A DNA stretch of 64,000 nucleotides, from NCBI GenBank assembly GCA_940746715.1, contig CALNWN010000006.1, positions 210,922-274,921 on the forward strand, written 5' to 3'. Shown in pieces: positions 22,681 through 42,633 of the stretch. The notes beneath the pieces are model-generated. The model searched no databases. It saw only the letters and a list, made by a program, of their open reading frames with translations, and had not been told where the DNA came from. The position numbers and the translations under genes were made by a program. Source of the stretch: an uncultured Paraburkholderia sp. (GTDB taxonomy: Bacteria > Pseudomonadota > Gammaproteobacteria > Burkholderiales > Burkholderiaceae). Within the stretch, counting starts at the first letter, position 1. The number at the start of each line of letters is the position of its first letter.

Positions 22681-26231
<3,551 letters not shown>

Positions 26232-26234
26232 GGC

Positions 26235-26636
26235 TCAGCCCGGCCGGCGCGCGATGAAGTCGATTTCCACCAGCGCGTCACGAGCCAAGGCAGTGACGCC
26301 GATGCAGGTGCGCGCGGGCAGCGCGTCCGCGGGAAAGTACGCGCGGTACGCCTCGTTCATTGCCGCGTAGTCGCGCTTGAACTCGGTGAGGAAAATGCGC
26401 ACGGCGACCACGTGTTGCAGGCCGAGATCGAGGCCCTTCAGCACGAGCACGAGGTTGTCCATGACGCGCCGGGTCTGCGCGACCACGCCTTCGGGAAGCG
26501 GCGCGGCGTCGTCAGTGGGAGAGGTGGGCATCTGGCCCGTGAGGAACACCCAGCCGTCGGCTTCGGCGGCGTGGCTAAACGGGCCGACCGGCGTCGGGGC
26601 GCCGGGGATCATCCAGAAAGCGGGGGTGGGGCTCAT
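26235..26636 (-). CDS. RidA/YjgF family protein, intact
   Basis: GPFSHA, FLTGQMP, PARTCIGVTALARDALVEID. Confidence 0.9.
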   Translation of the reverse strand: MSPTPAFWMIPGAPTPVGPFSHAAEADGWVFLTGQMPTSPTDDAAPLPEGVVAQTRRVMDNLVLVLKGLDLGLQHVVAVRIFLTEFKRDYAAMNEAYRAYFPADALPARTCIGVTALARDALVEIDFIARRPG

Positions 26637-26741
26637 GGAGATTGCACCTCACGGCTGAGAGTGTCGGGTTGACACGATAACCGATCAAAAGTCGCGATGC
26701 CGGCACACGGGCCGGCATCATCTCCTGAAGCGATCCGGCGC

Positions 26742-28143
26742 TTACACCAGCCCCGTCGTGTAATAGACGGCGATAACGAAGAACACCGCCAGCGTCTTGA
26801 TGACGGTCACCGCGAAAATGTCGCGATACGACTGACGGTGCGTCAATCCGGTCACGGCCAGCAGCGTGATCACCGCGCCGTTATGCGGCAGCGTGTCCAT
26901 GCCGCCGCTTGCCATGGCGACCACGCGGTGCAGCACTTCCATTGGAATATGAGCGGCCTCGGCGCCCTTGATGAACACGTCCGACATGGCCGCGAGCGCG
27001 ATGCTCATGCCGCCTGACGCCAAGCCGGTAATGCCCGCCAGCGAACTCACCGACACCGCCGCGTTGACGAGCGGATTCGGGATGCTCTTCAGCGCGTCGC
27101 TGACCACGAGAAAGCCCGGCAATGCCGCGATGACGCCGCCGAAGCCATATTCCGACGCCGTATTTAGCGACGCCAGCAGCGCGCCCGCCACGGCAGCCTT
27201 GGTACCGATCGCAAAACGCTCGCGCACGCGGCCGAAGGCCGTCAGCACGACCATGACGATGCCGAGGAGCAGTGCGCCTTCGACAGCCCAGATGGCCACC
27301 ACGGTTTTGATCGTCGTGGTGAGCGGCGTGTAGAACGCCCGGCAGAATGTCCGGCGCGACGGTGTACGAAGCGCCGTAGGCGGTCGGAATCCAGCGCGTC
27401 AGCACGAAGTTCGCGACGCCCACCAGCACCAGCGGCGCGATGGCGAGCAACGGATGCGGCAGTTGCTTCGACTCGACGCGCTCCGGCTCGTTGACGAGTT
27501 CCGTGCCATAGCCTTCGCCGGCTGCCATCGCGGAGCGGCGGCGCCATTCCAGATAGCCGAGACCCACGACGATGATGAACAGCGAGCCCGCCACGCCGAG
27601 CGCGGGCGCGGCCCACGAGGTCGTCTTGAAGAACGTGGTCGGGATGATGTTCTGGATTTGCGGCGTGCCCGGCAGCGAATCCATGGTGAACGAGAACGCG
27701 CCGAGGGCGATCGCGCCGGGCATCAGGCGCTTCGGGATATTGCTCTGGCGATACAGCTCGGCGGCAAACGGATACACCGCGAACACGACCACGAACAGCG
27801 AGACGCCGCCGTAGGTGAGCAGCGCGCACACGGCGACGATCACCGCATTCGCGCGCGATCGGCCAATGTAGCGGATCGCGGCGGCCACGATCGACTCAGA
27901 GAAGCCGGACAGTTCGATAACCTTACCGAACACGGCGCCGAGCAGAAACACCGGGAAATACAGTTTGACGAAGCCGACCATCTTCTCCATGAAGATGCCG
28001 GTGAACACGGGCGCGACGGCGGCCGGATCGACCAGAAGGACGGCGGCGAGCGCGGCGATCGGCGCGAACAGAATGACGCTGTAGCCACGATACGCGGCGA
28101 ACATCAGAAACGCCAGCGCGGCAAGGACGATGACAAAGGACAT
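26742..28143 (-). pseudogene. GntP-family permease (hydroxybutyrate-permease-like), frameshift near 27320
   Basis: LFAPIAAL, LTYGGVSLFVV, LPGTPQIQNIIP, DTLPHNGAVITLL. Confidence 0.88.
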
Positions 28144-28214
28144 TGAGTCTCCAGAAGCTTGGTTTGTTCTAAGTGTACGCCATCTCCTCGTAGCGACGGC
28201 ATGGCGCCCGCGAA

Positions 28215-28230
28215 TGCAGGTTCCATGCCA
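28215..28230 (-). promoter_or_regulatory. Sigma-54 (-24/-12) promoter of the permease
   Basis: Minus strand TGGCATGGAACCTGCA versus consensus TGGCACGNNNNTTGCW; divergent sigma-54 activator next door. Confidence 0.7.
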
Positions 28231-28478
28231 TGCGGCTTGCAACGGCTCGCGCGCTGACGCGGCGGGCTTACGCCGCCAAAACCGGGAGACGCGGCGCCGC
28301 CGATTGTACCCAAACGTCTCCAAACGGGGATGCGAATTGCACAAAGTGTGGCTGACAGCAGCGCGAAAGCCTTGATGCAACGGGCTTGTCGCGGATCTCT
28401 CTATTGAGATAAGCTTGTCTCCAGACAGAGACAGAGACAGAGCGGCCACTAAAACGATAGCCCGGAGACAGCGACAAC

Positions 28479-29951
28479 ATGATGAACGACTGGGCGGGCC
28501 TTCCCGCCACCTACGGCGACGTGCTACGCCGCGCGATGGATTCCCTGTTTCACACGTTCGAAAACTTCAGCGAAGGCACGTTTATCGTCGACGCCGAAGC
28601 GCGCGTCGTGTGGATCAACAAGCGTTACGCGGCGCGCTTCGGCTTTGCCGACCCCGAGCAGGCAATCGGCCGCGATTGCGAAGCGGTGATTCCCAACAGC
28701 CTGATGCGCGAAGTCGTCAAAACGGGCAAGCCTATCCTGCTCGATATTCTGGAAACGGACCGCGAGCCGCTCGTCGTCACGCGTCTGCCGCTGAAGGACG
28801 ACGCCGGCGAGACCGTCGGCGCCGTCGGTTTCGCGCTGTTCGACGAGCTCAAGGCGCTGACGCCGCTGTTTTCCCACTATTCGCGCGTGCAGGAAGAATT
28901 GATCGCGACGCGTCAGTCGCTTGCGCAGGCGCGCCGGGCCAAATACACGTTCGGCAGCTTTGTCGGCACCAGCACGGCAAGCCTCGAAGTGAAGCGCCAG
29001 GCTCGCCGCGCGGCCCAGCTGGAGTCGCCGGTGCTGCTGCTCGGTGAAACGGGCACGGGCAAGGAACTGCTCGCGCACGCGATCCACGGCGGCTCCGCGC
29101 GCGCCAACCAGCCGCTCGTGACGGTGAACGTGGCGGCGATTCCGGACACCCTGCTCGAAGTCGAGTTCTTCGGCGCGGCGCCGGGCGCCTACACGGGCGC
29201 GGACCGCAAGGGGCGGGTCGGCAAGTTCGAGCTGGCGAACGGCGGCACGCTTTTCCTCGACGAGATCGGCGATATGCCGTTGCCTTTGCAGGGCAAGCTG
29301 CTGCGCGTGTTGCAGGACAAGGAGTTCGAGCCGCTCGGCTCGAACCGGATCGTGCGCGCGGATGTGCGGATCATCGCGGCCACCTCGGCAGATTTGCCGG
29401 CGCTCGTCGCCGCCGGACGTTTCCGCGCGGACCTGTTCTATCGCATGAACGTGCTGATGATCCACGCTCCGCCGCTGCGCGAGCGCGCTTCCGACATCGA
29501 GGCGCTCGCGTACGCCATGCTCGAGGATCTGTCGAGGCAGGTGCGCGGCGGCAGCCACTACGAATTGCAGGACGACGCGTTGCGGCTGCTCTGCTCGTAT
29601 GGCTAGCCAGGCAACGTACGCGAGTTGCGCAACACGCTGGAGCGCGCCGTGATGCTTTCCGACAGCGAGCGGATCGACGCGCGGGCGCTCGCGCCGTTCA
29701 TCGGTGCCGGGGCGAGCGGCGCGCCGGGCGCCAGCTTGCCGCCGCCGGACGGCAACGCGCAGGCCGCTGCCGAAGACGGGCAGGCGGCGCAGCCGTCGTC
29801 ATGGAGCGACGCGATGGCGGCTTTCGAAAAGCGCTTCCTGAGCGAGGCCCTGCGCGCGAACGGCGGGCGCGTGATCGAGACCGCCGCGCAAATCGGCATG
29901 GGCCGCGCGACGCTCTACAAGAAGATTGCGGCGCACGGCATCGAAGTTTGA
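28479..29951 (+). pseudogene. PAS-AAA+-Fis-HTH sigma-54 activator with in-frame TAG at 29604-29606
   Basis: [30 protein letters not shown], then YG*PGNVREL (Trp position) and the HTH in the same frame. Confidence 0.92.
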
Positions 29952-30063
29952 GACAAGCGCTCGTGCGGCGGCGGTCGCGGCGGCGCTTGCGTCAGATCAC
30001 GCAGCGTAATAGTCGCGTGGCACAATCGCGTGATCTAAAAACAAGACCTGATCGGGGTTTCAC

Positions 30064-30278
30064 ATGAACCGGAGCTTCTCTTTCCTGGCGCGCCGTACCT
30101 GCGCGATGCTGGCAGTTGCCGCCGGCGCGGCATTGGGCGGCTGCAGCAGCAGCGCGCCGCTCTTTCTGTCGGACGGCCGTCCGACCACGCTGGTGGAATG
30201 CCCGGCGGGTTCGACACCGTCCGCCGGTCCACAAGCAACGGCACCCTTAGCCTGATCTACGCCTGCTGGGCTAAATAA
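30064..30278 (+). pseudogene. Small lipoprotein with an internal deletion/frameshift
   Basis: Lipobox ALGGC; C-terminal LSLIYAC lies in another frame. Confidence 0.55.
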
Positions 30279-30725
30279 CTCGTTCCACGCGCCGCGCCAT
30301 CCTCGCGCGGCCGATATACACCCGCCTTCCTGATTCCGCGGAAAACTGCTTTCGAGAAGTGCGCTAGCGTCATAAATGGGTGCTTCTAATGCGGCCGCTC
30401 GCAGGAAGCGCGTAATGCACGCCGCACATCCAATTCGAGTTACCGGGATTTATTCCAGACGGATCGACATCGATAAAAAGTCGCTGTATTTTTTCGCACT
30501 GGAGTGAAGTCGGTGCGCCAGGTAACGGAACGTCAAATCCCGCGGCAGTATTCTATTTTCACAGGTTCGCTAGCGCATGCGACCAGCAGCTTTTGCCGAC
30601 AAGGAGGCCGGTAGGCAAAAGCGAGGAAGAAGTTGCCGACACAAAAAACGATGCGTTGAGAGCGGCACACATGTACTTTTCCGTTGCGTTTTGAATTAAG
30701 TCAACGAGTATTCCGGGGAAAAAGA

Positions 30726-30930
30726 ATGAATCACCACCAACTCGAAAAAGACATCCAGCATCTCGAACACGTCATTTCGCACATTTCCGCTGAAGACCGA
30801 ATCCCGCTGTCGTATTGGCGTAACCGCATCGATTCGGTTTCCGACGCCGTCCGCATGCCGACACAGGTCAATCGCATCAAACGTCTGAATGCCGCGCTCG
30901 CGGCGCTGGAAGAGCGGCAAAAGATTGACT
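30726..30930 (+). CDS. Small conserved-looking hypothetical protein (about 66 aa); stop apparently lost, reading into the next gene
   Basis: MNHHQLEKDIQHLEHVISHISAEDRIPLSYWRNRI...; ORF continues in frame into the hydrolase. Confidence 0.55.
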
Positions 30931-30998
30931 GCCGTCGCGGCCAAGGCTTTGCCTCATCATCTTCCCTCGACTACACCACGCCGGGACACACCATCGAC

Positions 30999-32091
30999 AT
31001 GCAAGCAGGATTTTCAGCGGCCCGGCTCGCGGCCTTGACGAGGACTTTGCAGGACTACGTCGAGCGCGGCGCAACCGGCTACTTCGAGGCGCTCGGCCTG
31101 CGCGACGAAGCCGCTCACTTGCCGATGGAGCGTGACACTCTGTTTCGCATTGCGTCGATGACAAAACCGGTGGCGAGCGCCGCCATCCTCATGCTCGTGG
31201 AAGAAGACCGGCTCGCGCTCGACATGCCGATCGCGCAGTGGCTGCCGGAGCTCGCCGCGCCGCGCGTGTTGCGCGATCCGGGCGGCCCGCTCGACGAGAC
31301 GGACCCGGTGCCACGCCGCTGACCGTGCTCGATCTGCTGACGCATCGCGCCGGCTTCGACGCGCGCGGCGACGTCGACGCGTGGCTTGCGCGCATCGCTG
31401 AATTGCCGTTGATGTTTCAGCCCGGCTCGCGCTGGCACTACGGCATCGCGACGGACGTGCTCGGCGCACTCATCACGCGAGTGAGCGGCATGTCGCTGGG
31501 CGACTTTTTTCGCACGCGGATTTTCGAGCCGCTCGGCATGCGCGACACCGCGTTCTGGGTGCCTGAGCCGCAGCTGCCGCGGCTCGCCACCGCTTATGGC
31601 GTCGATGCCGACACGCGGCGGCGCGTGGTGGAGGACCACGCGTCGGCGAGCCGTTGGGCGAATCCGGCGCGCTTCCAGAGGGGCGGCGGCGGGCTCGTGT
31701 CCACCGCGCAGGACTATCTGCAGTTCGCGCAGTTGCTATTGCGGCGTGGGCGCGTGGGCGACACGCGCTTGCTGTCGCATCGTTCGGTTGATCTCATGCG
31801 CTCGAACTTCCTGACGCGCGACCAGCGCCGCCTGCCGGCTTTCGGTCACGTGATGTGGGCGGGCCAGGGGTTCGCCTCGGCCTGTCTATCGTCGACGATC
31901 CGGCGCAGCAGTTGCCGCAAGGTTATCGCTCGATGGGCTCGTTCGGCTGGCCCGGCGCTTTCGGCACGAGCTGGTTCGCCGATCCGCTGGAAGATCTGAT
32001 CGGACTAATGCTGATCCAGCGCCGTTCCATTGAGCCGTTTCCGATGGCAGTCGACTTCGAGCGCCGCGTGTACGATGCCATCGATGATTGA
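30999..32091 (+). pseudogene. Serine hydrolase (class C beta-lactamase/EstB family), deleted and frameshifted
   Basis: FRIASMTK (SxxK), LLTHRAG, PGSRWHYG, GGGGLVSTAQDY, GSFGWPG. Confidence 0.88.
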
Positions 32092-32216
32092 ACGCGCGCG
32101 CCTCGCGTGTTCCGCCGCCCCTTCAGACAACGCGCGGTGATGGGCGCTCTATCCGGCGTTTTATTCGTCTTGTAGCGTTCGCACTTCGGTTCGCCACAAT
32201 CACTGGAGCATCTGTC

Positions 32217-32507
32217 ATGGCCTCATACAAGCAGTTGACCGCTCAGCTCGAGAAGCTTCACAAGGAGGTCGCAGCGGCTCGCGAAAAGGAGATCGCGCAA
32301 GCGATCGCCGACATCAGGCAGAAAATTGCCGAATACGATCTCACCGCCGAGGAACTCGGCTTTGCGAAAACTCGCCCGGCGGCGCGCAAAGGCGCGGCGG
32401 TCGCCAAGTATCGCAACCCGAAAACCGGCGAAACGTGGAGCGGCCGCGGCCGTTCGCCCGCGTGGCTCGCCGGCAAGAACCGCGAACGTTTTCTCATCGA
32501 TGCTTGA
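32217..32507 (+). CDS. hns: H-NS family nucleoid protein, intact
   Basis: KYRNPKTGETWSGRGRSPAW DNA-binding motif; 96 aa. Confidence 0.92.
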   Translation: MASYKQLTAQLEKLHKEVAAAREKEIAQAIADIRQKIAEYDLTAEELGFAKTRPAARKGAAVAKYRNPKTGETWSGRGRSPAWLAGKNRERFLIDA

Positions 32508-33124
32508 TGGGCGGCTGCCGCGCGCCTTTTTGCGCGCATCGCTTTGACGCGCATCTCTCAAGTGATGCAGCAGCGCGTTTTTTCGCACCGCTGCGCAGGT
32601 CCCGAAAACGCTCACCTTTGGATTCGATCCGCGCTGCCGGTGATTGATCTTGACGGACAACGCATGCGCTGCGCTTTGTTTCGGTGAGCCTGGCTTCGTC
32701 GCGGCGCGCACCCGCCGCACGGTGAGCGCGACCCACGACTCACGGCTCACCCATGCCGCGCAAACCCGCGCTAGCCTTGGCTGACGGGCATTCCCAGGCT
32801 GTACGAAGAATCGCGGGAAGCGTCACCGCGCTGAATTAATCTTTCCAGGATCGAAGCTGGCAACGGACCGACGCAGCGCTGTCGGTGCAACAAGCATCTC
32901 GCGGATGCTCACCTTTCGCTCTCCTGCACACCTCGCCGCGGCAAGTCCCGAAAACGCTCACCTTTGCGCGCGTCCCGGCCCGTCACAAAGCGCGCCTCTT
33001 ACTCGACTACTCCGGGGAAATCCGGAGTTGAGTTCGCCTCATACCCCGGATCAAAACTCATCGATACATGGTCGCGGACGCCGAACGCCACAATCGGTCA
33101 TCCACTTAACTCGACGGACAGACC

Positions 33125-33649
33125 ATGAGCGTATCGGCGGACAAACAACTTTTTATCGGCGAAGGATTCGAAAGCCCGGGCGTGAACCTCGCCCATATCA
33201 ACGTGCTGGTCGGCCCGCGCAACGGCCCCGCGGGCCAAGCTTTTGCGACGGCACTCGCGACGCCCTCGGCGGGACACGCGCCGTTCGTCGTGATCGCGCG
33301 CCCCGGCCTGCCCACCAAGCCGCTGACGCTCTACGTGAACAAGGCGCAAATCGGCAGCGAGTTCCACGGCAACGCGACGTGGGGCGCGTCGCAAGCCGGC
33401 ATCGCGAAGGCGGTGGCCGAGTCGCTGGAGAACGGCACGTTGCCGCCCGAAGCGGAGAACGATTGGGTGGTGGTGTCGGCGAACTGGGTCAACCCGGCTA
33501 TCGACGACCTCGACGCCGTCTTCGAAAACAACTACCGCGCGTGCAGAAACGCCATTCTCGCGGCGATGAAAGGCCTGCCGCATCGCGATGAAGTATTCGC
33601 GGCCGCGCGCGAGGTCTCGAATCCCTTCTACACACCGAAACAACGCTGA
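33125..33649 (+). CDS. fae: Formaldehyde-activating enzyme (Fae) family paralog, intact
   Basis: GEG..AHINVLVGPRNGP, KPLTLYVNKA, GASQAGIAKAV, NYRACRNAI and C-terminal NPF match the Fae layout. Confidence 0.85.
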   Translation: MSVSADKQLFIGEGFESPGVNLAHINVLVGPRNGPAGQAFATALATPSAGHAPFVVIARPGLPTKPLTLYVNKAQIGSEFHGNATWGASQAGIAKAVAESLENGTLPPEAENDWVVVSANWVNPAIDDLDAVFENNYRACRNAILAAMKGLPHRDEVFAAAREVSNPFYTPKQR

Positions 33650-33701
33650 TTGCGGCACCGCTCGCACGCAGCCGCATCCCATCTGCAAGGAGACAGGTTT
33701 C

Positions 33702-34739
33702 ATGGAATACGTTCGCCTCGGCCAATCCGGCCTGAAGGTTTCGCGCTTGTGCCTCGGCACCATGAATATGGGCACGCCGCAATGGAAGCCCTGGATTTTC
33801 GACGAAGCGCGCAGCGAACCGATTGTTCGCCACGCGCTCGAGGCCGGCGTCAATTTCATCGACCTCGCCGATTTTTATTCGACGGGTGTCGGCGAAGAAG
33901 TGGTGGGGCGCATCCTGAAGCGCCTCGCGCGCCGCGAGGAAATCGTGGTGACGACGAAAGTCGGTTATGACATGGGCGCCTATCAGAACGCGGGCGGCCA
34001 CTCGCGCAAGCACATCATGGACGGCATCGACGGGTCGCTCACGCGCCTCGGCATGGATTACGTCGACATCTACATGCTGCATTTCTTCGACGTGAACACG
34101 CCGGTCGAAGAAACCATGGGCGCGCTGAACGACATCGTGCATGCGGGCAAGGCGCGCTACATCGGCGTCTCGACCATGTACACCTGGCAGTTCGCGAAGA
34201 TCATGCAGGCCTGCGAGCGCAACGGCTGGCACAAGCCGATCAACATGCAGCTGCAGTTGAATCTCGCCTATCGCGAGGAAGAGCGCGAAATGATTCCGTA
34301 CTGCCAGGATCAGGGCGTCGGCGTCTCGGTGTTCAGTCCGCTTGCGCGCGGGCTGTTGACGAGCGACGCCCACTCGACGCGCAATCAGACCGACTTCTTC
34401 ACCGCGCAAATGTACGGCGATGGCGTGTCGCGCGAGATTGCGGCGTCAGTGGCGCGCGTGGCCGCGCAGCGCGGCGTGTCGCCCGCGCAGATTGCACAGG
34501 CGTGGGTGCTCGCGCATAAAGGCGTGGCCAGCATGCTGGTCGGGGCAGACACGCCCGCGCAATTCGACAGCGCCGTGGCCGCGCTCGGCACCGCGCTTTC
34601 CGACGACGAACTGTTCGAGCTCGAACGCAACTACACGCCGTGCGACCTGATCAACGATTACACCGCCGGCAAGCGCATTGCGCGCGAGCCTCGGCCGGCA
34701 CAAGGCGTGTTCGCCGGCCAACTGGAGGAAGCCGCATGA
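33702..34739 (+). CDS. Aldo/keto reductase (YajO-like), intact
   Basis: RLGQSGLKVSRLCLGTM; tetrad-like D/Y (DLADFY), K (TTKVG), H (MLHFFD); SPLARG. Confidence 0.92.
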   Translation: MEYVRLGQSGLKVSRLCLGTMNMGTPQWKPWIFDEARSEPIVRHALEAGVNFIDLADFYSTGVGEEVVGRILKRLARREEIVVTTKVGYDMGAYQNAGGHSRKHIMDGIDGSLTRLGMDYVDIYMLHFFDVNTPVEETMGALNDIVHAGKARYIGVSTMYTWQFAKIMQACERNGWHKPINMQLQLNLAYREEEREMIPYCQDQGVGVSVFSPLARGLLTSDAHSTRNQTDFFTAQMYGDGVSREIAASVARVAAQRGVSPAQIAQAWVLAHKGVASMLVGADTPAQFDSAVAALGTALSDDELFELERNYTPCDLINDYTAGKRIAREPRPAQGVFAGQLEEAA

Positions 34740-36169
34740 ACCCGTTTTTGCGGACCGGACATTACATCGGCGGCGAGTGGTATGACGGCGCGAGCACGTA
34801 TCCGGTGCTCAATCCGGCGACAGGCGAAGTGATCGCGCTAGTCGCAAAAGGCGGCGCGGCCGAGACGACGCAAGCCATTGCCGCGGCAGAGCGCGCTTTT
34901 CCCGCCTGGCGCTCCATGACCGCGAAGGAGCGCGGCGCGCGCGTCGGACGTTGGGGCGAGTCGATGCTCGGGCATCGCGATGCACTGGCCGAACTGTTGA
35001 CGCGCGAGCAGGGCAAGCCGCTTGCCGAGGCGCGCGGCGAGGTCGGCTATGCAGCAAGCTTTTTCGAATGGTTCGCGGAGGAAGCGAAGCGCGCGTATGG
35101 CGGCGTCATTCCGAGTCCGAATCCGAACGCGAAGATCATCGTGACGCGCGAACCCGTCGGCATGGTCGCGGCCATCACGCCGTGGAATTTCCCGCTCGCC
35201 ATGATCACACGCAAGGCCGGCCCCGCGCTCGCTGCTGGCTGCACGATGGTGCTCAAGCCCTCGGAAGAGACGCCGTTATCGGCGCTCGCCGTGCTGGCGG
35301 AGAAGGCGGGCATTCCACCGGGCGTGTTCAACATCGTTTCCGGCGATGTCGCTGCGATAGGCGGCGCGCTGACCGAATCGGACGTGGTGCGCAAGCTGTC
35401 GTTCACCGGCTCGACGCGCGTCGGCAAATTGCTTGCGAAGCAGTCGGCGGATACGTTGAAGAAGCTCTCGCTCGAATTGGGCGGCAACGCGCCGTTCATC
35501 GTTTTCGACGACGCGGACCTCGACGCCGCCGTGCAAGGCGCAATGGCTTCCAAGTTTCGCAACACCGGACAAACCTGCGTCTGCGTGAATCGCTTTTACG
35601 TGCAGGACGGCATTTACGACGCGTTCACGCAGGCGCTCGCCCAGGCCGCGCGCAAGATGCGCGTGGGCAACGCGCTGCAGGGCGATGTCGAACAAGGGCC
35701 GCTCATCCATCAGGCCGCGTTGGCGAAGGTGCAAGCGCATGTCGCGGACGCGTTGCAGAACGGCGCCCGGGCGCTGACCGGCGCTAGGCCGCATGCGTTA
35801 GGCGGCACCTTTTATGAACCGACGGTTCTCGTCGATGCAACGAGTTCGATGCTGATCGCGCAGGAGGAAACCTTCGGGCCGGTCGCTGCGTGCTTCCGCT
35901 TCAGAACCGAAGAAGAGGCGCTGGCCGCCGCGAACGCGACGCCGTTCGGGCTCTCCGCGTATTTTTACACGCGCGACCTGGCGCGCGCGTGGCGCGTGGG
36001 CGAAGCGCTGGAAAGCGGCATGGTGGGCATCAACGAAGGGATTCTGTCCACCGAAGTCGCGCCGTTCGGCGGCGTCAAGCAATCTGGCCTGGGGCGCGAA
36101 GGCTCGAAGTATGGGCTCGATGAGTACACCGAACTCAAGTACATGCTGATGGGCGGTTTGGGGCGTTGA
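34736..36169 (+). CDS. gabD: NAD(P)-dependent succinate-semialdehyde dehydrogenase family enzyme, intact
   Basis: ITPWNFP, SFTGST, LELGGNAP, NTGQTCVC, EETFGP, PFGGVKQSGLGREG. Confidence 0.9.
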   Translation: MNPFLRTGHYIGGEWYDGASTYPVLNPATGEVIALVAKGGAAETTQAIAAAERAFPAWRSMTAKERGARVGRWGESMLGHRDALAELLTREQGKPLAEARGEVGYAASFFEWFAEEAKRAYGGVIPSPNPNAKIIVTREPVGMVAAITPWNFPLAMITRKAGPALAAGCTMVLKPSEETPLSALAVLAEKAGIPPGVFNIVSGDVAAIGGALTESDVVRKLSFTGSTRVGKLLAKQSADTLKKLSLELGGNAPFIVFDDADLDAAVQGAMASKFRNTGQTCVCVNRFYVQDGIYDAFTQALAQAARKMRVGNALQGDVEQGPLIHQAALAKVQAHVADALQNGARALTGARPHALGGTFYEPTVLVDATSSMLIAQEETFGPVAACFRFRTEEEALAAANATPFGLSAYFYTRDLARAWRVGEALESGMVGINEGILSTEVAPFGGVKQSGLGREGSKYGLDEYTELKYMLMGGLGR

Positions 36170-36256
36170 GCGTCAGGCCGCGGGCCGGCGCTGCCACTGC
36201 CTGACGCAGCCGCGCGACGCCGGCCCACCCCGAACAAGACAAACACAGGAGACACC

Positions 36257-37638
36257 ATGAATAATCAGGATATCCAGGCAACTCATCTCGGACTCGCGCC
36301 CGCCTTCCCGGCGTCCGCGTCGCCCGCAAGGCAGCCCGTTTCCATCGACGACGTGCGGCTGAACGCATTCCACGTCAAGATTGCCGGCCTCACGTTCGGC
36401 GCCCACTTCACCGAAGGCTTCGCGCTCGGCACCATCGGCTATGCGCTCGCCGCGATGAACCGGCAGATGCCGCTTGACGCGTTCTGGATGGGCATGATCG
36501 GCAGTTCCGCGCTGATGGGTATTTTCGTCGGCAGCCTGGTGTTCGGCTGGCTGTCGGACCGGCTTGGCCGGCAGAAAATTTTCCTGATGAGCTTTCTCAT
36601 CATCACCGTGGCTGCCTTTGCGCAGTTCTATGTGCGCTCGCCTGTCGAGCTGTGTCTGCTGCGCGTGTTGATCGGCTTCGGCATGGGCGGCGACTTTGCG
36701 GTGGGCCACGCGATTCTCGCGGAATTCTCGCCGCGCAAGCATCGCGGCACATTGCTCGGCTCGTTCAGCGTCATCTGGACGATCGGCTACGTGGTCGCGA
36801 ATGTGCTCGGCATGCATTACGCCGACGCGTCGCCGGATGCATGGCGCTGGCTGCTCGCCTCGGCGGGCATTCCGGCCGTGATCGTGCTGGTCGCGCGCGT
36901 GGGCACGCCGGAGTCGCCGCGCTGGCTGCTCGGCAAGGGCGGATCGCTGAGGCGAAGTCGGTCGTCCTCAGGCACTTCGGCGAAAACGTCACGCTCGACG
37001 GCGGCCATGACGAACACGCGCAGACAGCGAGCGGGTTCATGCGTCTCTTCGAAAAAGACCTGATTCGCCGGACAATCTTCAACTGCGCGTTCTTCGTGTG
37101 CCTCGTCATTCCGTATTTCGCGATTTACACGTTCCTGCCGACCATACTGAAAGCGACTCACCTGAACAACGACTCCGGCGCGGATCTGCTGCTGAACGGT
37201 TTTCTGGTGCTTGGCGCGCTGATCGGCATCTGGCTCACGATCAAGCTGTCGCGGCGCGCCTTTCTGATCGGCTCGTTTGCCGTGACCTGCGTGTCGCTGA
37301 TTGCATTGAGCGCGCTGCCCGAGTCGGCCACGCTCGCCATGATCGTCGCGTTCGGCATTTTCACGCTGACCATGTCGGCATTCTCGAACCTGGTCGGCGT
37401 GTTCCCGCCCGAATGCTTTCCCACCGAAGTCCGCGCGTGCGGCGTCGGCCTCGCCATTGCGTGCAGCCGCCTCGGCTCGGCGGTGGGGACGTTCCTGCTG
37501 CCGCTCGGCATCGCCGGCCTCGGGTTTCACGTCACGATGATCGTGCTGGCGACCGTGCTGCTGGTCGGCATGATCGTTTCGATTGCGTGGGCGCCCGAAA
37601 CGAAGCACTTGACGCTCAATGAGGCGAGCGGCGGCTGA
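36257..37638 (+). pseudogene. MFS transporter (YaaU/YgcS-like), single frameshift near 36945
   Basis: SDRLGRQK, AEFSPRKHRG, GTPESPRWL, ECFPTEVRA, PETK. Confidence 0.88.
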
Positions 37639-37884
37639 GAAGTCTGCAGGCGCGGCTGGCGGCGGGTCGTGCCGAGCAGTCCCCGCGCCGCGCGCGCCGC
37701 GTGAATCAGGCTCTGATAGCCGCTTTTCTGCCGCCAGCCGCCCGCCCCGTCGCGGGCGGCTTTCCCACGTCCGACGCCGCGGCGTGTATCATTCGTTCCC
37801 TGCGCTGTTCTGCGCTGGCGATTATCCGTATTGTCGAACGTTCGTTCCCGACCTGTTTTCCGATGCGGCCCGGTTGCCATAGTG

Positions 37885-39499
37885 ATGCGGGTTCCCGACC
37901 CGACACGCCGCCGCACTTTCGCGGTCATTTCCCACCCGGACGCGGGTAAAACCACGCTGACCGAAAAGCTGCTGCTGTTTTCGGGCGCGATTCAGATCGC
38001 CGGCACCGTGAAGGGCCGCAAGAGCAATCGGTACGCGACGTCCGACTGGATGGAAATCGAAAAGCAGCGCGGCATTTCGGTCGCGAGCTCGGTGATGCAG
38101 TTCGAGTACGGCGACGCGGTCATCAATCTGCTCGATACGCCGGGTCACGAAGACTTTTCCGAAGACACGTACCGCGTGTTGACCGCGGTCGACGCCGCCG
38201 TGATGGTGATCGACGGCGCGAACTGTGTCGAAGCGCAAACGCTCAAGCTGCTCGAAGTGTGCCGCAGCCGCAAGACGCCCATCGTCACGTTCATCAACAA
38301 GCTCGAATCAACAAGCTCGACCGGGAAGTGCGCGAACCGCTGGAACTGCTCGACGAGATCGAGCAGCATCTGGGCGTCGCGGCCGTGCCATTCACGTGGC
38401 CGATCGGCATGGGTAAGGAATTCCAGGGCGTCTACGACATTCAGCGCGACCAGGTTCGCGTATTCCGCGCCGGCCAGGACACGGCGGGCGGCGCAGTAGA
38501 AACGCTGCAGGCCTTGAGCGATGAGGAAGGCGAACGCCGCTTCGGTCATAGCTGGGTCCGCGCCAAGGAGGAAATCGATCTGATTACGGGCGCCACGCCG
38601 GACTTCGACCGCGAGCAGTTTCTTGCCGGCCAGCAGTCGCCGGTGCTGTTCGGCTCGGCGATCAACAATTTCGGCGTGAAGGAAATTCTCGACGCGCTGG
38701 TCGACCTGGCGCCGCCGCCGTCCATGCGCATGACGGTGCAGCGTCCGGTGATGCCCGACGAGCCCAAGTTCACCGGCGTCGTGTTCAAGGTCCAGGCGAA
38801 CATGGATCTGGCCCACCGCGACCGCGTGGCGTTCATCCGTGTCTGTTCCGGGCGTTTCGAGCGCGGCATGGCCGTCAAGGTGACGCGGTCCAACAAGACG
38901 TTCCGCGCAAACAACGTGGTGACGTTCCTGTCGCAGCGGCGCGAGACGGTGAGCGAGGCGTATCCCGGCGACATCATCGGTATTCCTAATCACGGCACGC
39001 TGAGTCTCGGCGATACGTTGACCGAAGGCGAAGCGCTCCAGTTCGTCGGCCTGCCGTTCTTCGCGCCGGAAATTTTCCAGACCGTCGAAGTGGTCGACCC
39101 GATGCGCGCGAAGCAACTCGGCGAGGCGCTGAAGCAGCTTGGCGAAGAAGACGCGATTCAGGTGTTCCGTCCCGAAGTGGGCGGTTTGATGATTCTGGGC
39201 GCGGTCGGCCAACTCCAGTTCGAAGTGGTGTCGCACCGGTTGTCGACGGAATACAAGGTCGACGTGCGCATGGCGCCCGCGCGCTACCGCATGTCCCGCT
39301 GAGTCACATGCGACGACCCCGCCGAACTTCGCCGCTTCACCGATTCATACGCCGCGCGCATCGCGCTCGACGCATCGGACGCGCCGACCTATCTCGCTTC
39401 GCATGTGTCGGAGATCGAGGTCGCACAAAAGGCGTGGCCGAAAATCGTGTTCAACGAGCTTCGCGAGCATTCGGCGCGCCGTTCAAGAAGGCGATGTAA
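37885..39499 (+). pseudogene. prfC: Peptide chain release factor 3, with 14-bp duplication frameshift and in-frame TGA at 39300-39302
   Basis: [60 protein letters not shown]. Confidence 0.93.
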
Positions 39500-39649
39500 G
39501 CCGGCAAGGCCGGAGTCCGCAAGCGCTTTGATGCTTGCCGGGCGGCCCGAGCGACAAGGCAAAGCCGCGTGGCGCAGTGATGCAGCACGCGGCTTTTTTA
39601 TTGCCGGTTCATGCGCCGCACACGGCCGGCGGCTGACGGCAGCGGCAAG

Positions 39650-40446
39650 TCAACCCATCTTCAATACCGCTTCGCGCAGCCAGCCCGCGAACGCCTGCAC
39701 GTACTCGAGCCCGGCGTGCTGCGGCGCGACGTCGAGCCAGTAGCCGAACGGGCCGGCCACTTCCACCTCCGAAAACTGCGCGAGGCTGCCGTCCGCCAGC
39801 TCCTCGACGATCATGTTTCTGTCGACGATAGCGAGGCCTGCGCCCTTGCGCGCCGCGCGAATCGCCTGTTCGAGCGTCGAAAATTCGATGCCGTTTTCCG
39901 CGTAGCGCGGGCATGTGTTCGAGCAGCCTGTCGAGCGGCTCGCCGAGCAACATGGGCGCGCCGACGAGCACGTGGCGCTCGGTCATCAGTAATTCGGAAT
40001 GCGCGTCGGGCACCGCATGGCGGCCAAAGCGGATGTCGCAATGGCAGTCCGCGGTCGGCTCGGTGCGGATCGACAATTCGACGTCCGGCATTTCGTCGGC
40101 CCAGCGAACCGAGCCGCGGCGAGAACCACTGCGTCGCGAAGGTGGGCGGCACCGCGACCACGAGGCGGCGACGTCCCTTGGCGGCGGTAATCTGGCGGAA
40201 GCCGCGCTCAATGGTGTCGAACGCGTCGGACAGACAGGGCAGCAACTGCAGGCCGGCCGGCGTCAGGCGAATGCCTTTGTGATCGCGCTCGAAAAGCTTC
40301 GCGCCGAGCGATTCCTCGAGCAGCTTGATCTGCCGGCTCACGGCGCCTTGCGTCACGCACAGCGCGCTCGCCGCGCGGTTGAAGCTCATGTGGCGCGCAG
40401 TTTCCTCGAAAAAACGCAACGCGATGAGCGATGGCAAGCGTCGCAT
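39650..40446 (-). pseudogene. LysR regulator (GcvA-like), frameshifted and internally deleted
   Basis: LPSLIALRFFE..SFNRAASALCVTQGAVSRQIKLLE. Confidence 0.85.
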
Positions 40447-40706
40447 ACCTCACCTTCTGTCTCTTGATCATCCGCAACGGTGCCGCCGGTGTCGGTGCGC
40501 GGAGCGCCTGCAATTGTCGCACTGAAGCGCGCTATTTTGCCTGCGCGCGCTAAAAAAATCCCGACGCGCGGTCGCGCGAATCCAGCGCCGGTTGATCGGC
40601 CCATCAACGCGTTCGAGAAGCGCCGCGCGATCCCGTCAGTTCGCCTATCCTGACGAAGACGCGCGCTCACGCCCGAGCGGGGCGCCCTTTAATTTGCGGA
40701 GTGCCT

Positions 40707-41570
40707 GTGACCGTTCGCAATCTCGACGCGTTGTTCCGACCGAAGTCCGTCGCCGTGATCGGCGCTTCCGAGCGGCCGGGCAGCACCGGCGCGATGGTGT
40801 GGGCGCGGCTTCGACGGCCCGCTGTGGCCTGTGAATCCGCAATACGACACGCTGGGCGGCCACGCGGTGATCCATGATGCCGGCGACTTGCCGCAAGCGC
40901 CTACCGTCGCGCTAATCTGCACGCCGCCCGCGAGCTGGCCGTCGATCATTCACAAGCTGGGCGGATTGGGGACGCGCGCGGCGATCATCGTCGGCGAGGT
41001 GCGCTCCGACGATGACCGGCTCGCGCTGCGGCAAGCTTTGCCGCACGCGGTGGGCGGCAATCCGCTGCGGCTCGGCGACGACGCGCGTCCCGAGCACTTC
41101 GACACGGCACTGAAACTGCTCGCCGCGCATCGCGGCACCGGCACGGCCTTCGTCGTGCATGCGCAAGGCATTCCGGTTCACACCACGCCGCAGCGGCTCG
41201 CCCGCGCGTTTGCGCGTCTCGTCGATTACCGCATGGGGCGCGAATTGCTGATGCAAACGCCCGAAGGCTTGCCGGCTGACGTACCCGACGCAATCGACGC
41301 CGCGCAGACGCAGGCTCGCGCGGCGTTGGCGGCAGGTGAGCGCCAACTAACCGGGGAAGCCGCAGCGCGCCTGCTTGAGCGCTTCGGGCTCGAAATCGAA
41401 GCGGCGCGTGCCGACACGGATTCGGGGGCTAAGGAGCCTCAGCGAGAATCCGGCGATTGCGCCGGTAGCAATGGGGAGTCGCTGCGCAAGCCGGTGGTGG
41501 ACATTGCCGTCGAGCTTCATGACGACGACAACTTCGGCACGGTATTCCGCTTCACGGCACCTTCCGCTGA
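40707..41570 (+). pseudogene. Remnant of an acyl-CoA-synthetase-like GNAT acetyltransferase (Pat/YfiQ family) with several large internal deletions
   Basis: VTVRNLDALFRPKSVAVIGAS, then discontinuous pieces GGNPLRLGDDA, HTTPQRLARAF, ELHDDDNFG. Confidence 0.75.
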
Positions 41571-41833
41571 CCAACCTGCAATGCAAGCTCTCCGGCCTCG
41601 CAGCGGAGGCCTCGCCGGGCTGGACCGAGGACACGCTGCGGCCCTACGTCGAGCATCTGCTCACTACCTTCGGTCCGGCGCGCCTCATGTGGGGCAGCGA
41701 CTGGCCCGTGCTCGAACTCAACGGCGATTATCTGCTCTGGCACTCGGTGGCGAACACGCTGCTTGCTTCGCTTTCCGACAGCGAGCGCGAAGCGGTTTTT
41801 GGCGGCAATGCCGCTGCGTTTTATCGACTGTGA
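41570..41833 (+). pseudogene. C-terminal fragment of an amidohydrolase_2 (sugar-acid lactonase-like)
   Basis: CKLSGL, FGPARLMWGSDWPV, VFGGNAAAFYRL. Confidence 0.8.
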
Positions 41834-41889
41834 CGTAACGAAGACAAGCGTAACCAGGACAGGTTAAGCCCATTCAACTGGAGTCGTAG

Positions 41890-42633
41890 ATGACACAAAG
41901 ACTGGCCGGCAAGACAGCATTGATTACCGCAGCGGGGCAAGGCATCGGCCTCGCGACCGCCGAAGCATTCGCACGCGAGGGCGCGCGCGTGATCGCCACC
42001 GACATTCGCATCGACGGGCTCGCCGGCAAGCCCGTCGAGGCACGCAAGCTGGATGTACTGGACGGCGACGCGATCAAGGCGCTGGCCGCCGAACTCGGTC
42101 CCATCGACGTGCTGTTCAACTGCGCGGGCTTCGTGCACGCGGGCTCGATCCTCGAATGCAGCGAAGAGGATTGGGATTTTGCGTTCGACCTAAACGCGAA
42201 AGCGATGTACCGGATGATCCGCGCGTTCCTGCCCGGCATGCTGGAGCGCGGCGGCGGGTCGATCATCAATATGTCGTCGGCGGCGTCGAGCGTGAAGGGC
42301 GTGCCGAACCGCTTTGCCTACAGCGCGTCGAAGGCGGCGGTGATCGGGCTGACCAAGTCGGTCGCCGCGGATTTCATCACGCGTGGTATACGTTGTAATG
42401 CGATCTGCCCCGGCACGGTGTCGTCGCCGTCGCTCGAACAGCGGATCGTCGCGCAGGCCGCGGCGCAAGGCGCGACGCTCGAGGCCGTGCAGGCGGCGTT
42501 TGTCGCGCGCCAGCCGATGGGCCGCATCGGCAAGCCGGAGGAGATTGCCGCGCTCGCGCTGTATCTCGCGTCGGACGAGTCGTCGTTCACGACGGGTCAC
42601 GCGCATGTGATCGACGGCGGCTGGTCGAACTGA
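41890..42633 (+). CDS. SDR oxidoreductase (2-keto-3-deoxy-L-fuconate dehydrogenase-like), intact
   Basis: TAAGQGIG, FNCAG, YSASK, NAICPG. Confidence 0.88.
   Translation: MTQRLAGKTALITAAGQGIGLATAEAFAREGARVIATDIRIDGLAGKPVEARKLDVLDGDAIKALAAELGPIDVLFNCAGFVHAGSILECSEEDWDFAFDLNAKAMYRMIRAFLPGMLERGGGSIINMSSAASSVKGVPNRFAYSASKAAVIGLTKSVAADFITRGIRCNAICPGTVSSPSLEQRIVAQAAAQGATLEAVQAAFVARQPMGRIGKPEEIAALALYLASDESSFTTGHAHVIDGGWSN

What the first reader, a model, noticed from the sequence alone, without database searches (positions are those of the whole stretch)
33125..37638. Intact fae-paralog / aldo-keto reductase / SSADH operon retained amid decay: candidate H4MPT-independent aldehyde-processing system
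Seen: fae, AKR and gabD-like genes are contiguous, co-oriented and intact; the AKR stop overlaps the gabD start (ATGA at 34736). A YaaU/YgcS-like MFS with a single frameshift follows. The stretch 32217-36945 has no disabling lesion although such lesions are dense elsewhere. Known: canonical Fae condenses formaldehyde with H4MPT, and no H4MPT pathway gene is in this window. Inference: this Fae paralog may act on another aldehyde or amine within an import, alcohol/aldehyde redox, aldehyde-to-acid module of unknown substrate, possibly a host-derived compound, and may be under selection.
Basis: partly seen in the sequence, partly recalled or inferred. Interest (0 to 1): 0.72.

Follow-up and report, generated by a model that had tools for sequence, protein, structure and literature searches.

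The report
Decaying Fae-like aldehyde operon remnant
Three still-open genes (a look-alike of formaldehyde-activating enzyme, an aldo-keto reductase and a succinate-semialdehyde-type dehydrogenase) survive from a widespread, uncharacterised five-gene uptake-and-breakdown module; its regulator and transporter are already dead in this decaying Paraburkholderia genome, so it is more likely a late-surviving relic than a host-adapted system.

Summary
The MFS gene has one frameshift, and every Pfam-identified non-module neighbour except a small H-NS-like gene is broken.

The Fae is not canonical. It is 29-34% identical to H4MPT-dependent Fae and sits in a separate clade. It belongs to a conserved module (GcvA-type LysR, MFS, Fae-like, AKR, ALDH) found in Paraburkholderia, Pseudomonas, Serratia, Acinetobacter, Halomonas and Aquitalea. 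No H4MPT gene is nearby in about 100 loci. Free-living Paraburkholderia carry it in addition to a canonical fae/H4MPT cluster. No publication on the module was found, and the substrate is unknown.

The claim of retention under selection is not supported.
- The cognate LysR has two frameshifts and a 74-bp deletion, and the MFS gene is dead.
- The ALDH carries a unique 2-residue deletion in a helix whose length is invariant in 90 orthologs.
- Window-branch dN/dS for the trio (0.15) equals that of the broken neighbours (0.14).
- Three sister strains and an unrelated symbiont MAG have broken fae, AKR, ALDH or MFS at other positions.
- The open run is nominally unusual locally (P about 0.005-0.02).

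Verdict: a relic of an interesting uncharacterised module.

The parts
32217..32507 (+). H-NS-like gene (96 aa), intact. It lies upstream of the cassette in about 70 Paraburkholderia loci. It is probably a neighbour or silencer rather than a pathway enzyme.
   Evidence: PF00816 E 8e-15. 97.8% aa identity to L025 with no lesion. The architecture 'hns fae akr aldh mfs' occurs in 46+19+... loci.
33125..33649 (+). Fae-family protein, non-canonical clade, 174 aa, open reading frame. It carries the unique substitution G17S at a site that is G in 92 of 94 orthologs.
   Evidence: It is 29% identical to M. extorquens Fae and 33.5% to the canonical Paraburkholderia Fae.
33702..34739 (+). Aldo-keto reductase, 345 aa, open. 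The D/Y/K/H tetrad motifs (DLADFY, TTKVG, YMLHFF) can be read in the sequence. AAGGAGA lies 9 nt upstream of the start.
   Evidence: PF00248 E 1e-66. Best solved relatives are DepB 8hwn (205 bits) and YghZ (142 bits). 97.7% aa identity to L025. Sequence read.
34736..36169 (+). SSADH-type NADP-aldehyde dehydrogenase, 477 aa, open. It has a window-specific in-frame 6-bp deletion at about 35281 that removes 'FA' from KPSEETPLSAFALAVLAE. It also has unique substitutions L76S, D123G, V143M and A205V.
   Evidence: TIGR01780 670 bits > 646; GabD equivalog 695 bits < 828. E. coli GabD 3jz4 scores 637 bits. Deletion. Unique substitutions. ATGA overlap with the AKR gene.
36257..37638 (+). MFS (Sugar_tr-type) importer pseudogene with a 1-bp deletion at 36936 that is specific to the window lineage.
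   Evidence: frame 2 to frame 1 at 36934-36937; the sisters have a G there. It is orthologous to the cassette MFS of Aquitalea, Pseudomonas, Serratia and Acinetobacter at 54-75% identity.
39653..40446 (-). GcvA-subfamily LysR regulator pseudogene, the module's cognate regulator. It has a +1 at about 40100 and a 74-bp deletion at about 39909. It is separated from the MFS gene by prfC.
   Evidence: Three frames in tblastn. Indels. 40-56% identical to the LysR adjacent to the cassette in five other genera, against 25-29% to an unrelated LysR. GcvA subfamily at 228 bits.

Best explanation
The locus is the remnant of a vertically inherited five-gene catabolic module: a GcvA-type LysR regulator, an MFS importer, a Fae-family protein, an aldo-keto reductase and an SSADH-type NADP-aldehyde dehydrogenase.

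In free-living relatives (inferred), the module takes up a small polar compound, probably zwitterionic or a hydroxy-acid. It converts this through an aldehyde that carries a distal carboxylate into a dicarboxylate such as succinate. The AKR does the carbonyl/alcohol redox step. The Fae-family protein, working without H4MPT, forms or resolves an adduct or cyclic form (carbinolamine, aminal or hydrate) of the aldehyde so that the ALDH can oxidise it.

In this genome (shown), the module is being lost. The regulator and the transporter are pseudogenes and the ALDH carries a unique 2-residue deletion. The three enzyme ORFs are still open because decay is recent and they have not yet been hit, or were protected somewhat longer than their neighbours. 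They are not a system specially retained for a host compound.
For: A conserved module exists:
- fae-akr-aldh occurs in about 90 of 100 loci, mostly with the MFS gene.
- The same order and tight coupling are seen in Pseudomonas, Serratia, Acinetobacter, Halomonas and Aquitalea.
- The LysR and MFS genes are orthologous across genera.
- A porin gene sits next to the module in Pseudomonas and Acinetobacter.
- Deeper relatives keep the trio of dehydrogenase, Fae-like and SSADH-type ALDH with other importers: Ensifer with a Dpp-like ABC system, Leucobacter and L098 with an OsmF-like ABC system, Halomonas with BCCT plus DddP.

The Fae is non-canonical and H4MPT-unlinked:
- Identity and clade placement.
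- No H4MPT gene in the window or in 100 loci.
- A canonical fae/H4MPT cluster coexists in the same Paraburkholderia species.

The module is decaying:
- LysR and MFS lesions.
- ALDH deletion in a helix of invariant length in 90 of 90 orthologs.
- Unique substitutions at near-invariant sites.
- Window-branch omega is 0.15 for the trio against 0.14 for the broken genes.
- Strain B: fae has Q38* plus a -1.
- Strains C and I: fae frameshifts, AKR -27 bp, ALDH -2 bp.
- Strains B, C and I: their own MFS frameshifts.
- The Vmac symbiont MAG has AKR, ALDH, MFS and LysR fragmented.
Against: - The three ORFs have no frameshift or stop although neighbours carry about 1.8 disabling events per kb (P about 0.005).
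- The LysR has three events in 0.87 kb while the 3.0-kb trio has none. This fits selection on the trio continuing after the regulator was lost.
- The effect of the 2-residue ALDH deletion is inferred, not measured.
- There are no expression data for this organism.
- The substrate and the role of the Fae-like protein are inferred from context only. The observed contexts (DddP/BCCT, OsmF-like ABC, Dpp-like ABC, MFS) do not converge on one compound.
Confidence: 0.6

Rival explanations
1. The three enzymes are still functional and under purifying selection in this lineage. They would be expressed without the LysR and act on a compound that is made in the cell or enters by another route, for example a host-derived aldehyde.
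For: - The locally improbable lesion-free 3.0 kb (P about 0.005-0.02).
- Intact start codons, RBS and ATGA coupling.
- Catalytic motifs present.
- Window-branch omega of 0.15.
Against: - Omega is the same in genes that are plainly dead.
- The cognate regulator and importer are dead.
- The ALDH has a unique deletion plus four unique changes at near-invariant sites, and the Fae has G17S.
- Three sister strains in other (coded) organisms and an independent symbiont MAG lost different genes of the module.
Confidence: 0.25
2. It is an ordinary H4MPT-dependent formaldehyde-activating enzyme, a spare copy of fae, that merely happens to sit next to unrelated redox genes.
For: - It passes the Pfam Fae gathering score and the NCBIfam TIGR03126 cut-off, so databases name it formaldehyde-activating enzyme.
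- The Fae fold is predicted.
- Relatives of this genome do have H4MPT clusters.
Against: - 29-34% identity to canonical Fae, whereas even archaeal Fae are 50-51% identical to the bacterial enzyme (PMC11748545).
- A separate clade with different signature motifs.
- Fixed linkage to AKR and ALDH across classes of bacteria, and no H4MPT gene nearby in about 100 loci.
- Presence in Enterobacterales, Acinetobacter and Pseudomonas, which are not known to make H4MPT (my own knowledge; PMC4776306 limits H4MPT use to methanogens and methylotrophic proteobacteria).
- Another non-canonical paralog (Fae3) fails to complement an M. extorquens fae mutant.
Confidence: 0.05
3. The module is not a nutrient pathway. 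It is a detoxification system for formaldehyde or another reactive aldehyde that uses a different carrier (tetrahydrofolate, a thiol or an amine). The Fae-like protein would make the adduct, by analogy with Gfa plus glutathione-dependent formaldehyde dehydrogenase.
For: - In Leucobacter, L098 and L099 the partner dehydrogenase is a class-III-like Zn-ADH related to mycothiol- or glutathione-dependent formaldehyde dehydrogenases (384 and 305 bits, below cut-offs).
- A tetrahydrofolate-linked role has been suggested in the literature for Fae-like proteins.
- One context holds GCV_T and a gamma-glutamylation set.
Against: - A dedicated importer (MFS, ABC or BCCT), a porin and a substrate-type LysR accompany the genes.
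- The ALDH is SSADH-type. By my recall of the human SSADH structure, it keeps the motifs that carry the carboxylate-binding residues (MITRK, FRNTGQTCVC, GREGS). This does not suit formaldehyde.
Confidence: 0.1

Closest known systems
Canonical formaldehyde-activating enzyme Fae (M. extorquens AM1; PDB 1Y5Y/1Y60; bacterial group 1 and archaeal group 5)
   Same: - Same Pfam family over its full length (PF08714) and above the TIGR03126 cut-off.
- Predicted fold matches 1Y60 (TM 0.69-0.71).
- Same size (about 170 aa), and the conserved His of the A-H-I motif is kept.
   Different: - Only 29-34% identical, in a separate clade.
- Signature motifs differ: AHIN for AHID, TWGASQ for MFGPAQ, NWVNP for VFIHW.
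- Never next to mtdB, mch or H4MPT-biosynthesis genes.
- Always next to an AKR/ADH and an SSADH-type ALDH.
- Coexists with a true fae in Paraburkholderia.
Fae-like paralogs of methylotrophs (Fae2, Fae3, Fae1-2; 'groups 2-4')
   Same: These are also non-canonical members of the family with no assigned function. Mutants show no C1 growth defect, and Fae3 does not complement a fae mutant (PMC5023235; PMC11748545).
   Different: - Those were studied in methylotrophs and discussed in terms of C1 metabolism, sensing or tetrahydrofolate.
- The clade here is defined by a fixed operon with AKR, SSADH-type ALDH, importer and LysR in non-methylotrophs.
- Whether it falls in group 2, 3 or 4 was not tested, because no named sequences were available.
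GabD-type NADP-dependent succinate-semialdehyde dehydrogenase (E. coli GabD, PDB 3JZ4)
   Same: - 637 bits to GabD and above the SSADH subfamily cut-off.
- The Cys (GQTCVC) and Glu (ELGGNAP) motifs are present, as are MITRK, FRN and GREGS.
   Different: - Below the GabD equivalog cut-off (695 < 828).
- Not linked to gabT or gabP but to the Fae-like and AKR genes.
- The window copy lacks two residues in the helix after KPSEETPLSA.
AKR13/AKR14-type bacterial aldo-keto reductases (DepB 8HWN, YghZ 3N6Q)
   Same: Same fold family and length, with 142-205 bits. These are NADPH-dependent carbonyl reductases by annotation.
   Different: No equivalog model is reached (best 154 bits against 448). The substrate is unknown.
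Two-step alcohol to aldehyde to acid uptake modules with a dedicated regulator (betAB/gbsAB choline to betaine; dddA/dddC 3-hydroxypropionate to malonate semialdehyde). Recalled from my own knowledge, not checked with the tools.
   Same: - The overall logic of importer, dehydrogenase and ALDH under one regulator.
- Some relatives use BCCT or OsmF-like importers, and one sits next to the DMSP lyase DddP.
- The LysR is related to the choline-sulfate and GcvA regulators.
   Different: Different enzyme families carry out both steps, and those systems have no Fae-family component.

Membership tests
Fae (formaldehyde-activating enzyme, EC 4.2.1.147) | Full-length match to the family models above the curated thresholds | tested here: met
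   PF08714 166 bits (cut-off 27), profile positions 1-158 of 159. TIGR03126 135.5 bits (cut-off 118.05).
Fae (formaldehyde-activating enzyme, EC 4.2.1.147) | Fae fold | tested here: met
   AlphaFold model (mean pLDDT 69, pTM 0.70). Foldseek top hits are 1Y60 and 1Y5Y at E 6e-10, TM 0.67-0.74; the next hit has E 7e-3. The model is only of moderate quality.
Fae (formaldehyde-activating enzyme, EC 4.2.1.147) | Groups with the functionally defined clades (bacterial group 1 or archaeal group 5, which are at least 50% identical to M. extorquens Fae) | tested here: not met
   29% identity in the MAFFT alignment (phmmer match to 1Y5Y E 1.7e-19) and 33.5% to the canonical Paraburkholderia Fae. The NJ tree separates it from the canonical representatives (PMC11748545).
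Fae (formaldehyde-activating enzyme, EC 4.2.1.147) | Genomic association with H4MPT-pathway or H4MPT-biosynthesis genes | tested here: not met
   tblastn with 13 proteins of the P. dilworthii H4MPT cluster gives no hit other than fae in the window or in 100 cassette loci. The canonical fae of the same species does sit in such a cluster.
Fae (formaldehyde-activating enzyme, EC 4.2.1.147) | Host organism makes H4MPT | not testable with these tools
   Whole genomes could not be scanned. The absence of H4MPT in Serratia, Acinetobacter and Pseudomonas rests on general knowledge.
Fae (formaldehyde-activating enzyme, EC 4.2.1.147) | Catalyses condensation of formaldehyde with H4MPT | not testable with these tools
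   Needs an enzyme assay or complementation of M. extorquens delta-fae.
Succinate-semialdehyde dehydrogenase (GabD type) | Score above the SSADH subfamily model; catalytic Cys and Glu motifs | tested here: met
   TIGR01780 670 bits > 646.35. GQTCVC and ELGGNAP are present in the translation.
Succinate-semialdehyde dehydrogenase (GabD type) | Score above the GabD equivalog model | tested here: not met
   NF008415 694.7 bits < 828.
Succinate-semialdehyde dehydrogenase (GabD type) | Undisturbed cofactor-domain architecture (length of the helix after KPxExTPL) | tested here: not met
   Two residues are missing that are present in 90 of 90 orthologs. By my recollection of its sequence, human ALDH2 also has the longer spacing. 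The deletion is specific to the window, since sister B keeps GCGCTC.
Fae-like/AKR/ALDH/MFS/LysR cassette (defined here) | All five orthologous genes present and open | tested here: not met
   Three are open. The MFS gene has one frameshift. The LysR has two frameshifts and a 74-bp deletion.
Aldo-keto reductase superfamily | PF00248 match and the catalytic tetrad | tested here: met
   225 bits. The D, Y, K and H motifs were read in the translation; the assignment of the tetrad is by motif, not by structure.

The most novel reading that the evidence does not exclude
The Fae-family protein of this cassette is an H4MPT-independent enzyme with chemistry not yet described for the family. It would make or open a carbinolamine, aminal or hydrate form of a carboxy-aldehyde between an AKR/ADH step and an SSADH-type step. 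It would do so in a widespread pathway for a small zwitterionic or hydroxy-acid nutrient. Candidates suggested only by context are homoserine- or 4-hydroxybutyrate-like compounds, DMSP/acrylate-derived C3 acids, and choline-like solutes. This would give the first function to the non-canonical 'Fae-like' groups.
Probability: 0.45. Interest if true: 0.7.

Novelty: new variant of a known kind. Interest (0 to 1): 0.45.

Why it matters
Workers on C1 metabolism state that the functions of the non-canonical Fae-like groups are unknown (PMC11748545). The fixed operon partnership found here gives that question a direct experimental handle. The partners are an AKR or Zn-ADH, an SSADH-type ALDH, an importer and a GcvA-type LysR, and the organisms include easily cultured, genetically tractable bacteria such as Pseudomonas, Acinetobacter, Serratia and Paraburkholderia phytofirmans.

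It also warns that the database name 'formaldehyde-activating enzyme' over-predicts H4MPT-linked methylotrophy in soil, rhizosphere and clinical genomes.

For genome-decay studies, the locus shows that an uninterrupted operon in a pseudogene-rich genome is weak evidence of function. Here the regulator and transporter are gone, and sister lineages lose different members of the same module first.

Tried and rejected
- **dN/dS as a test of selection.** Polarised window-branch omega is 0.15 for the trio, 0.14 for nine broken genes (still grouped the σ54-activator ORF, later found to carry a nonsense codon, with the H-NS-like gene; that pair also gave 0.14). Decay is too recent for the test to discriminate.
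- **GC3 frame-plot census of frameshifts over the whole 64 kb.** It was too noisy to count lesions. A list of long coding-like ORFs shows only that about 25 kb of the 64 kb lies in open frames of at least 200 codons.
- **Expression.** No RNA run holds this organism. Root metatranscriptomes hold low-depth transcripts of relatives' AKR and fae only.
- **Literature.** Ten searches found no paper on the cassette. The hits for 'formaldehyde-activating' in Serratia and Burkholderia papers were Gfa, an unrelated family.
- **First chance estimate.** An early estimate (about 10 lesions, expected longest gap about 4.4 kb) was superseded once all indels and a nonsense codon in the sigma-54 activator were counted.
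- **ALDH deletion in the sisters.** An early reading that the 6-bp ALDH deletion was shared with sister strains was wrong, because rows were hidden in the output. A narrow query showed it is window-specific.
- **Acrylate/3-hydroxypropionate as substrate.** It rests on a single Halomonas locus with DddP and BCCT, so it is kept only as a candidate.
- **'YaaU/YgcS-like' label for the MFS gene.** Not tested.

Full report
**What is there**

The window is about 64% G+C. Over 25290-41036 it is colinear with Paraburkholderia phenoliruptrix LMG 22037 (locus L025) at 93.9% nucleotide identity, the closest genome found.

The finding's coordinates hold four genes on the + strand.
- A 174-aa Fae-family ORF at 33125-33649 (PF08714 E 8e-49; TIGR03126 135.5 bits, cut-off 118).
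- A 345-aa aldo-keto reductase at 33702-34739 (PF00248).
- A 477-aa aldehyde dehydrogenase at 34736-36169 (TIGR01780 SSADH 670 bits, cut-off 646; GabD equivalog 695 bits, below 828).
- An MFS gene split into 36257-37063 and 36652-37638.

The AKR stop and the ALDH start overlap in ATGA at 34736-34739, preceded by GGAGGA. An H-NS-like gene (32217-32507) lies upstream. An independent contig set from a public run reproduces 30000-42000 without a single difference at word depth of about 128, so the lesions described below are not assembly errors.

**Is it intact amid decay?**

I compared the window with L025 by tblastn and by a multiple nucleotide alignment. The following are broken:
- a response regulator, by frameshift;
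- a 586-aa ORF, by frameshift;
- a sigma-54 activator, by a W-to-stop change at about 29604;
- a beta-lactamase-family gene, by several indels;
- the MFS gene, by -1 at 36936;
- prfC, by a 14-bp insertion at 38293, a 114-bp deletion at its 5' end and -1 at 39472;
- a LysR gene, by +1 at about 40100 and a 74-bp deletion at about 39909;
- two small ORFs of uncertain status.

Only hns, fae, AKR and ALDH lack a frameshift or stop. The nine broken neighbours carry 18 disabling events in 10.2 kb. The chance of none in the 3.0 kb of the trio is therefore about 0.005, and a first-hit hazard model gives an upper 95% bound of 0.02.

The run is thus nominally longer than local chance.

**What the Fae is**

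It is only 29% identical to M. extorquens Fae (phmmer match to PDB 1Y5Y, E 1.7e-19) and 33.5% to the canonical Fae of Paraburkholderia. By contrast, archaeal and bacterial canonical Fae share 50-51% identity (PMC11748545). A moderate-confidence model (pLDDT 69) has the Fae fold (TM 0.67-0.74 to 1Y60/1Y5Y) and no other significant match.

Close homologs are found in the following:

| Organism | Identity |
|---|---|
| Paraburkholderia | 93-97% |
| Burkholderia stagnalis | 86% |
| Dyella | 86% |
| Aquitalea | 78% |
| Pseudomonas | 66-70% |
| Serratia | 63% |
| Cedecea | 61% |
| Acinetobacter | 61% |
| Halomonas | 60% |

The clade is very conserved, with 66 invariant columns in 14 sequences. Two clade-specific peptide patterns found 417 matching stretches in the one-genome-per-species collection.

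Family-wide there are 750 50%-identity clusters. A neighbour-joining tree separates the canonical clade (motifs AHID, FGPAQ, VFIHW) from a large heterogeneous group (AHIN, TWGA[AS]Q, VWVNP) that contains the window protein.

**A conserved module**

In about 90 of 100 loci the Fae-like gene is followed by orthologs of the AKR and the ALDH, mostly also by the MFS gene. The same trio has 10-12-nt spacing between fae and AKR in most loci and, in Pseudomonas, Serratia and Paraburkholderia, the same 4-nt AKR/ALDH overlap. It occurs in Pseudomonas, Serratia, Acinetobacter and Halomonas, and in Aquitalea without the ALDH.

The LysR that lies beyond prfC in Paraburkholderia is 40-56% identical to the LysR adjacent to the cassette in those five genera, against 25-29% to an unrelated LysR. 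The MFS proteins are 54-75% identical. The LysR belongs to the GcvA subfamility.

Pseudomonas and Acinetobacter add a homologous porin-like outer-membrane protein. In Halomonas the MFS gene is replaced by a DddP DMSP lyase (643 bits, cut-off 600) and a BCCT transporter.

Deeper relatives keep the same logic with other parts.
- Ensifer has AKR, Fae-like, SSADH-type ALDH, LysR and a Dpp-like ABC importer.
- Leucobacter and an unnamed 2-Mb genome have an OsmF-like ABC importer, a class-III-like Zn-ADH, Fae-like, an SSADH-type ALDH and an IclR regulator.
- One metagenomic locus has ALDH and Fae-like next to a gamma-glutamylation gene set.

No H4MPT gene lies within 7-8 kb in any of the 100 loci or anywhere in the window. 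Paraburkholderia species that carry the cassette (P. dilworthii, P. kirstenboschensis, P. caledonica, sp. DHOC27 and others) also have a 169-aa canonical fae. In P. dilworthii and P. largidicola it sits in a classical cluster with xoxF, mtdB, mch and H4MPT-biosynthesis genes.

So a canonical H4MPT pathway probably exists in the genus, but the gene in this finding is a distinct paralog with its own partners. Ten literature searches found no study of this cassette. The most recent treatment states that Fae-like groups 2-4 have no known function.

**Is it under selection here?**

Five lines of evidence say probably not, or no longer.

1. Two of the five module genes are dead. These are the importer and the cognate regulator, and their lesions are specific to this lineage.
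2. The ALDH has a window-specific in-frame deletion of two residues (FA) in ...KPSEETPLSAFALAVLAE.... All 90 orthologs from six genera keep the longer form, and sister strain B still has GCGCTC there. The ALDH also has unique replacements at near-invariant sites (L76S, D123G, V143M, A205V), and the Fae has G17S. The functional effect of these changes is inferred.
3. Substitutions were polarised with four outgroups. Window-branch dN/dS is 0.15 for the trio (39 synonymous, 18 non-synonymous), 0.14 for the broken genes as grouped in that run (86, 34) and 0.14 for the H-NS-like gene plus the σ54-activator ORF, which still counted as intact. The ratio reflects the pre-decay past and says nothing for the trio.
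4. Runs from the same study under other organism codes hold sister strains about 96% identical to the window.
   - In B, fae has a nonsense codon (Q38*) and a 1-bp deletion at 33259.
   - In C and I, fae has the same deletion plus a 7-bp insertion (C) or a 4-bp deletion (I).
   - In C and I, the AKR has lost 27 bp and the ALDH is 2 bp short of the ancestral length.
   - B and C carry their own MFS frameshifts.
5. An unrelated 'Vmac symbiont' Paraburkholderia MAG keeps fae but has fragmented AKR, ALDH, MFS and LysR.

Different lineages lose different members first. That is the pattern of neutral loss of a dispensable module. Against this stands the local improbability of three unhit genes, especially next to a LysR with three events in 0.87 kb. 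Some extra period of selection on the enzymes in this lineage therefore cannot be excluded. I give the 'still selected' reading about 0.25.

**How it most likely works**

This section is inference. The dedicated importer, the porin and the substrate-type LysR point to catabolism of an imported small polar compound.

The ALDH is GabD-like (637 bits to 3JZ4). It keeps the motifs that, from my memory of the human SSADH structure, carry the carboxylate-binding residues (MITRK, FRNTGQTCVC, GREGS). The aldehyde intermediate therefore probably carries a distal carboxylate, and the product is a dicarboxylate such as succinate.

The AKR, or the Zn-ADH in deeper relatives, supplies the alcohol/carbonyl redox step. 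The Fae-family protein is always wedged against these two. Its only known chemistry is amine-carbonyl condensation to a cyclic aminal. It most plausibly forms or resolves a carbinolamine, aminal or hydrate form of that aldehyde without H4MPT.

The alternative importers (BCCT, OsmF-like and Dpp-like systems) and the GcvA/choline-sulfate-type regulator hint at a zwitterionic substrate. The single DddP context hints at DMSP-derived C3 acids. No specific substrate is supported well enough to name.

**Verdict**

The retention-under-selection part is not supported. In this window the feature is best read as a late-surviving relic.

Noticed in passing
window 37885-39473 (+): prfC (peptide chain release factor 3) is a pseudogene. 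It has a 14-bp insertion at 38293, a 114-bp deletion at its 5' end (about 37904) and -1 at 39472 relative to P. phenoliruptrix. It is intact in the 'Vmac symbiont' MAG (L056).
   Followed up: partly
window 28461-29951 (+): A sigma-54-dependent activator (PAS, AAA+ and Fis-type HTH domains) looks intact by tblastn. It carries a single nonsense codon (W to stop in SYGWPGNVREL, at about 29604) that removes the DNA-binding end.
   Followed up: yes
L091 7001-14051 (Halomonas sp. NCCP-2165): The Fae-like, AKR and ALDH genes are followed by a DddP-type DMSP lyase (643 bits, above the 600-bit cut-off), a BCCT transporter and the orthologous LysR, in place of the MFS gene. This is a possible link of the module to DMSP or acrylate metabolism.
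   Followed up: partly
L002 12204-13373 (-) and L089 5597-6772 (-): A 389-391-aa protein with a signal peptide and a C-terminal YYF, with no Pfam or NCBIfam match, lies next to the module's LysR in both Pseudomonas and Acinetobacter (32% identity). It looks like a substrate-specific outer-membrane porin.
   Followed up: partly
window 33100-33700 versus 36240-37688: Divergence between the window strain and sister strain B is uneven: 5.0% over fae but 1.9% over the MFS gene. Most of the fae differences are synonymous although fae is dead in B. Recombination or rate heterogeneity was not resolved.
   Followed up: no
L098 5798-13112 (GCA_963455285.1, 2-Mb contig): In another genome the Zn-ADH next to the Fae-like gene is called as two pieces, and the ABC permease as several short pieces. 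This suggests a second decaying genome carrying a related cluster.
   Followed up: no
window 30684-32091 (+): The beta-lactamase-family (PF00144) gene is the most heavily damaged neighbour. It has three 1-bp deletions plus in-frame losses of 39 and 63 bp, all specific to this lineage.
   Followed up: partly
runs X1-X4, X33: The runs that hold this sequence contain 350,000-770,000 contigs (47-114 Mb), with the bacterium at word depth of 95-200. They look like host-tissue metagenomes of several coded organisms, each with its own strain. Large deletions in the window are not shared with the sister strains, so decay proceeded independently after the strains split.
   Followed up: partly
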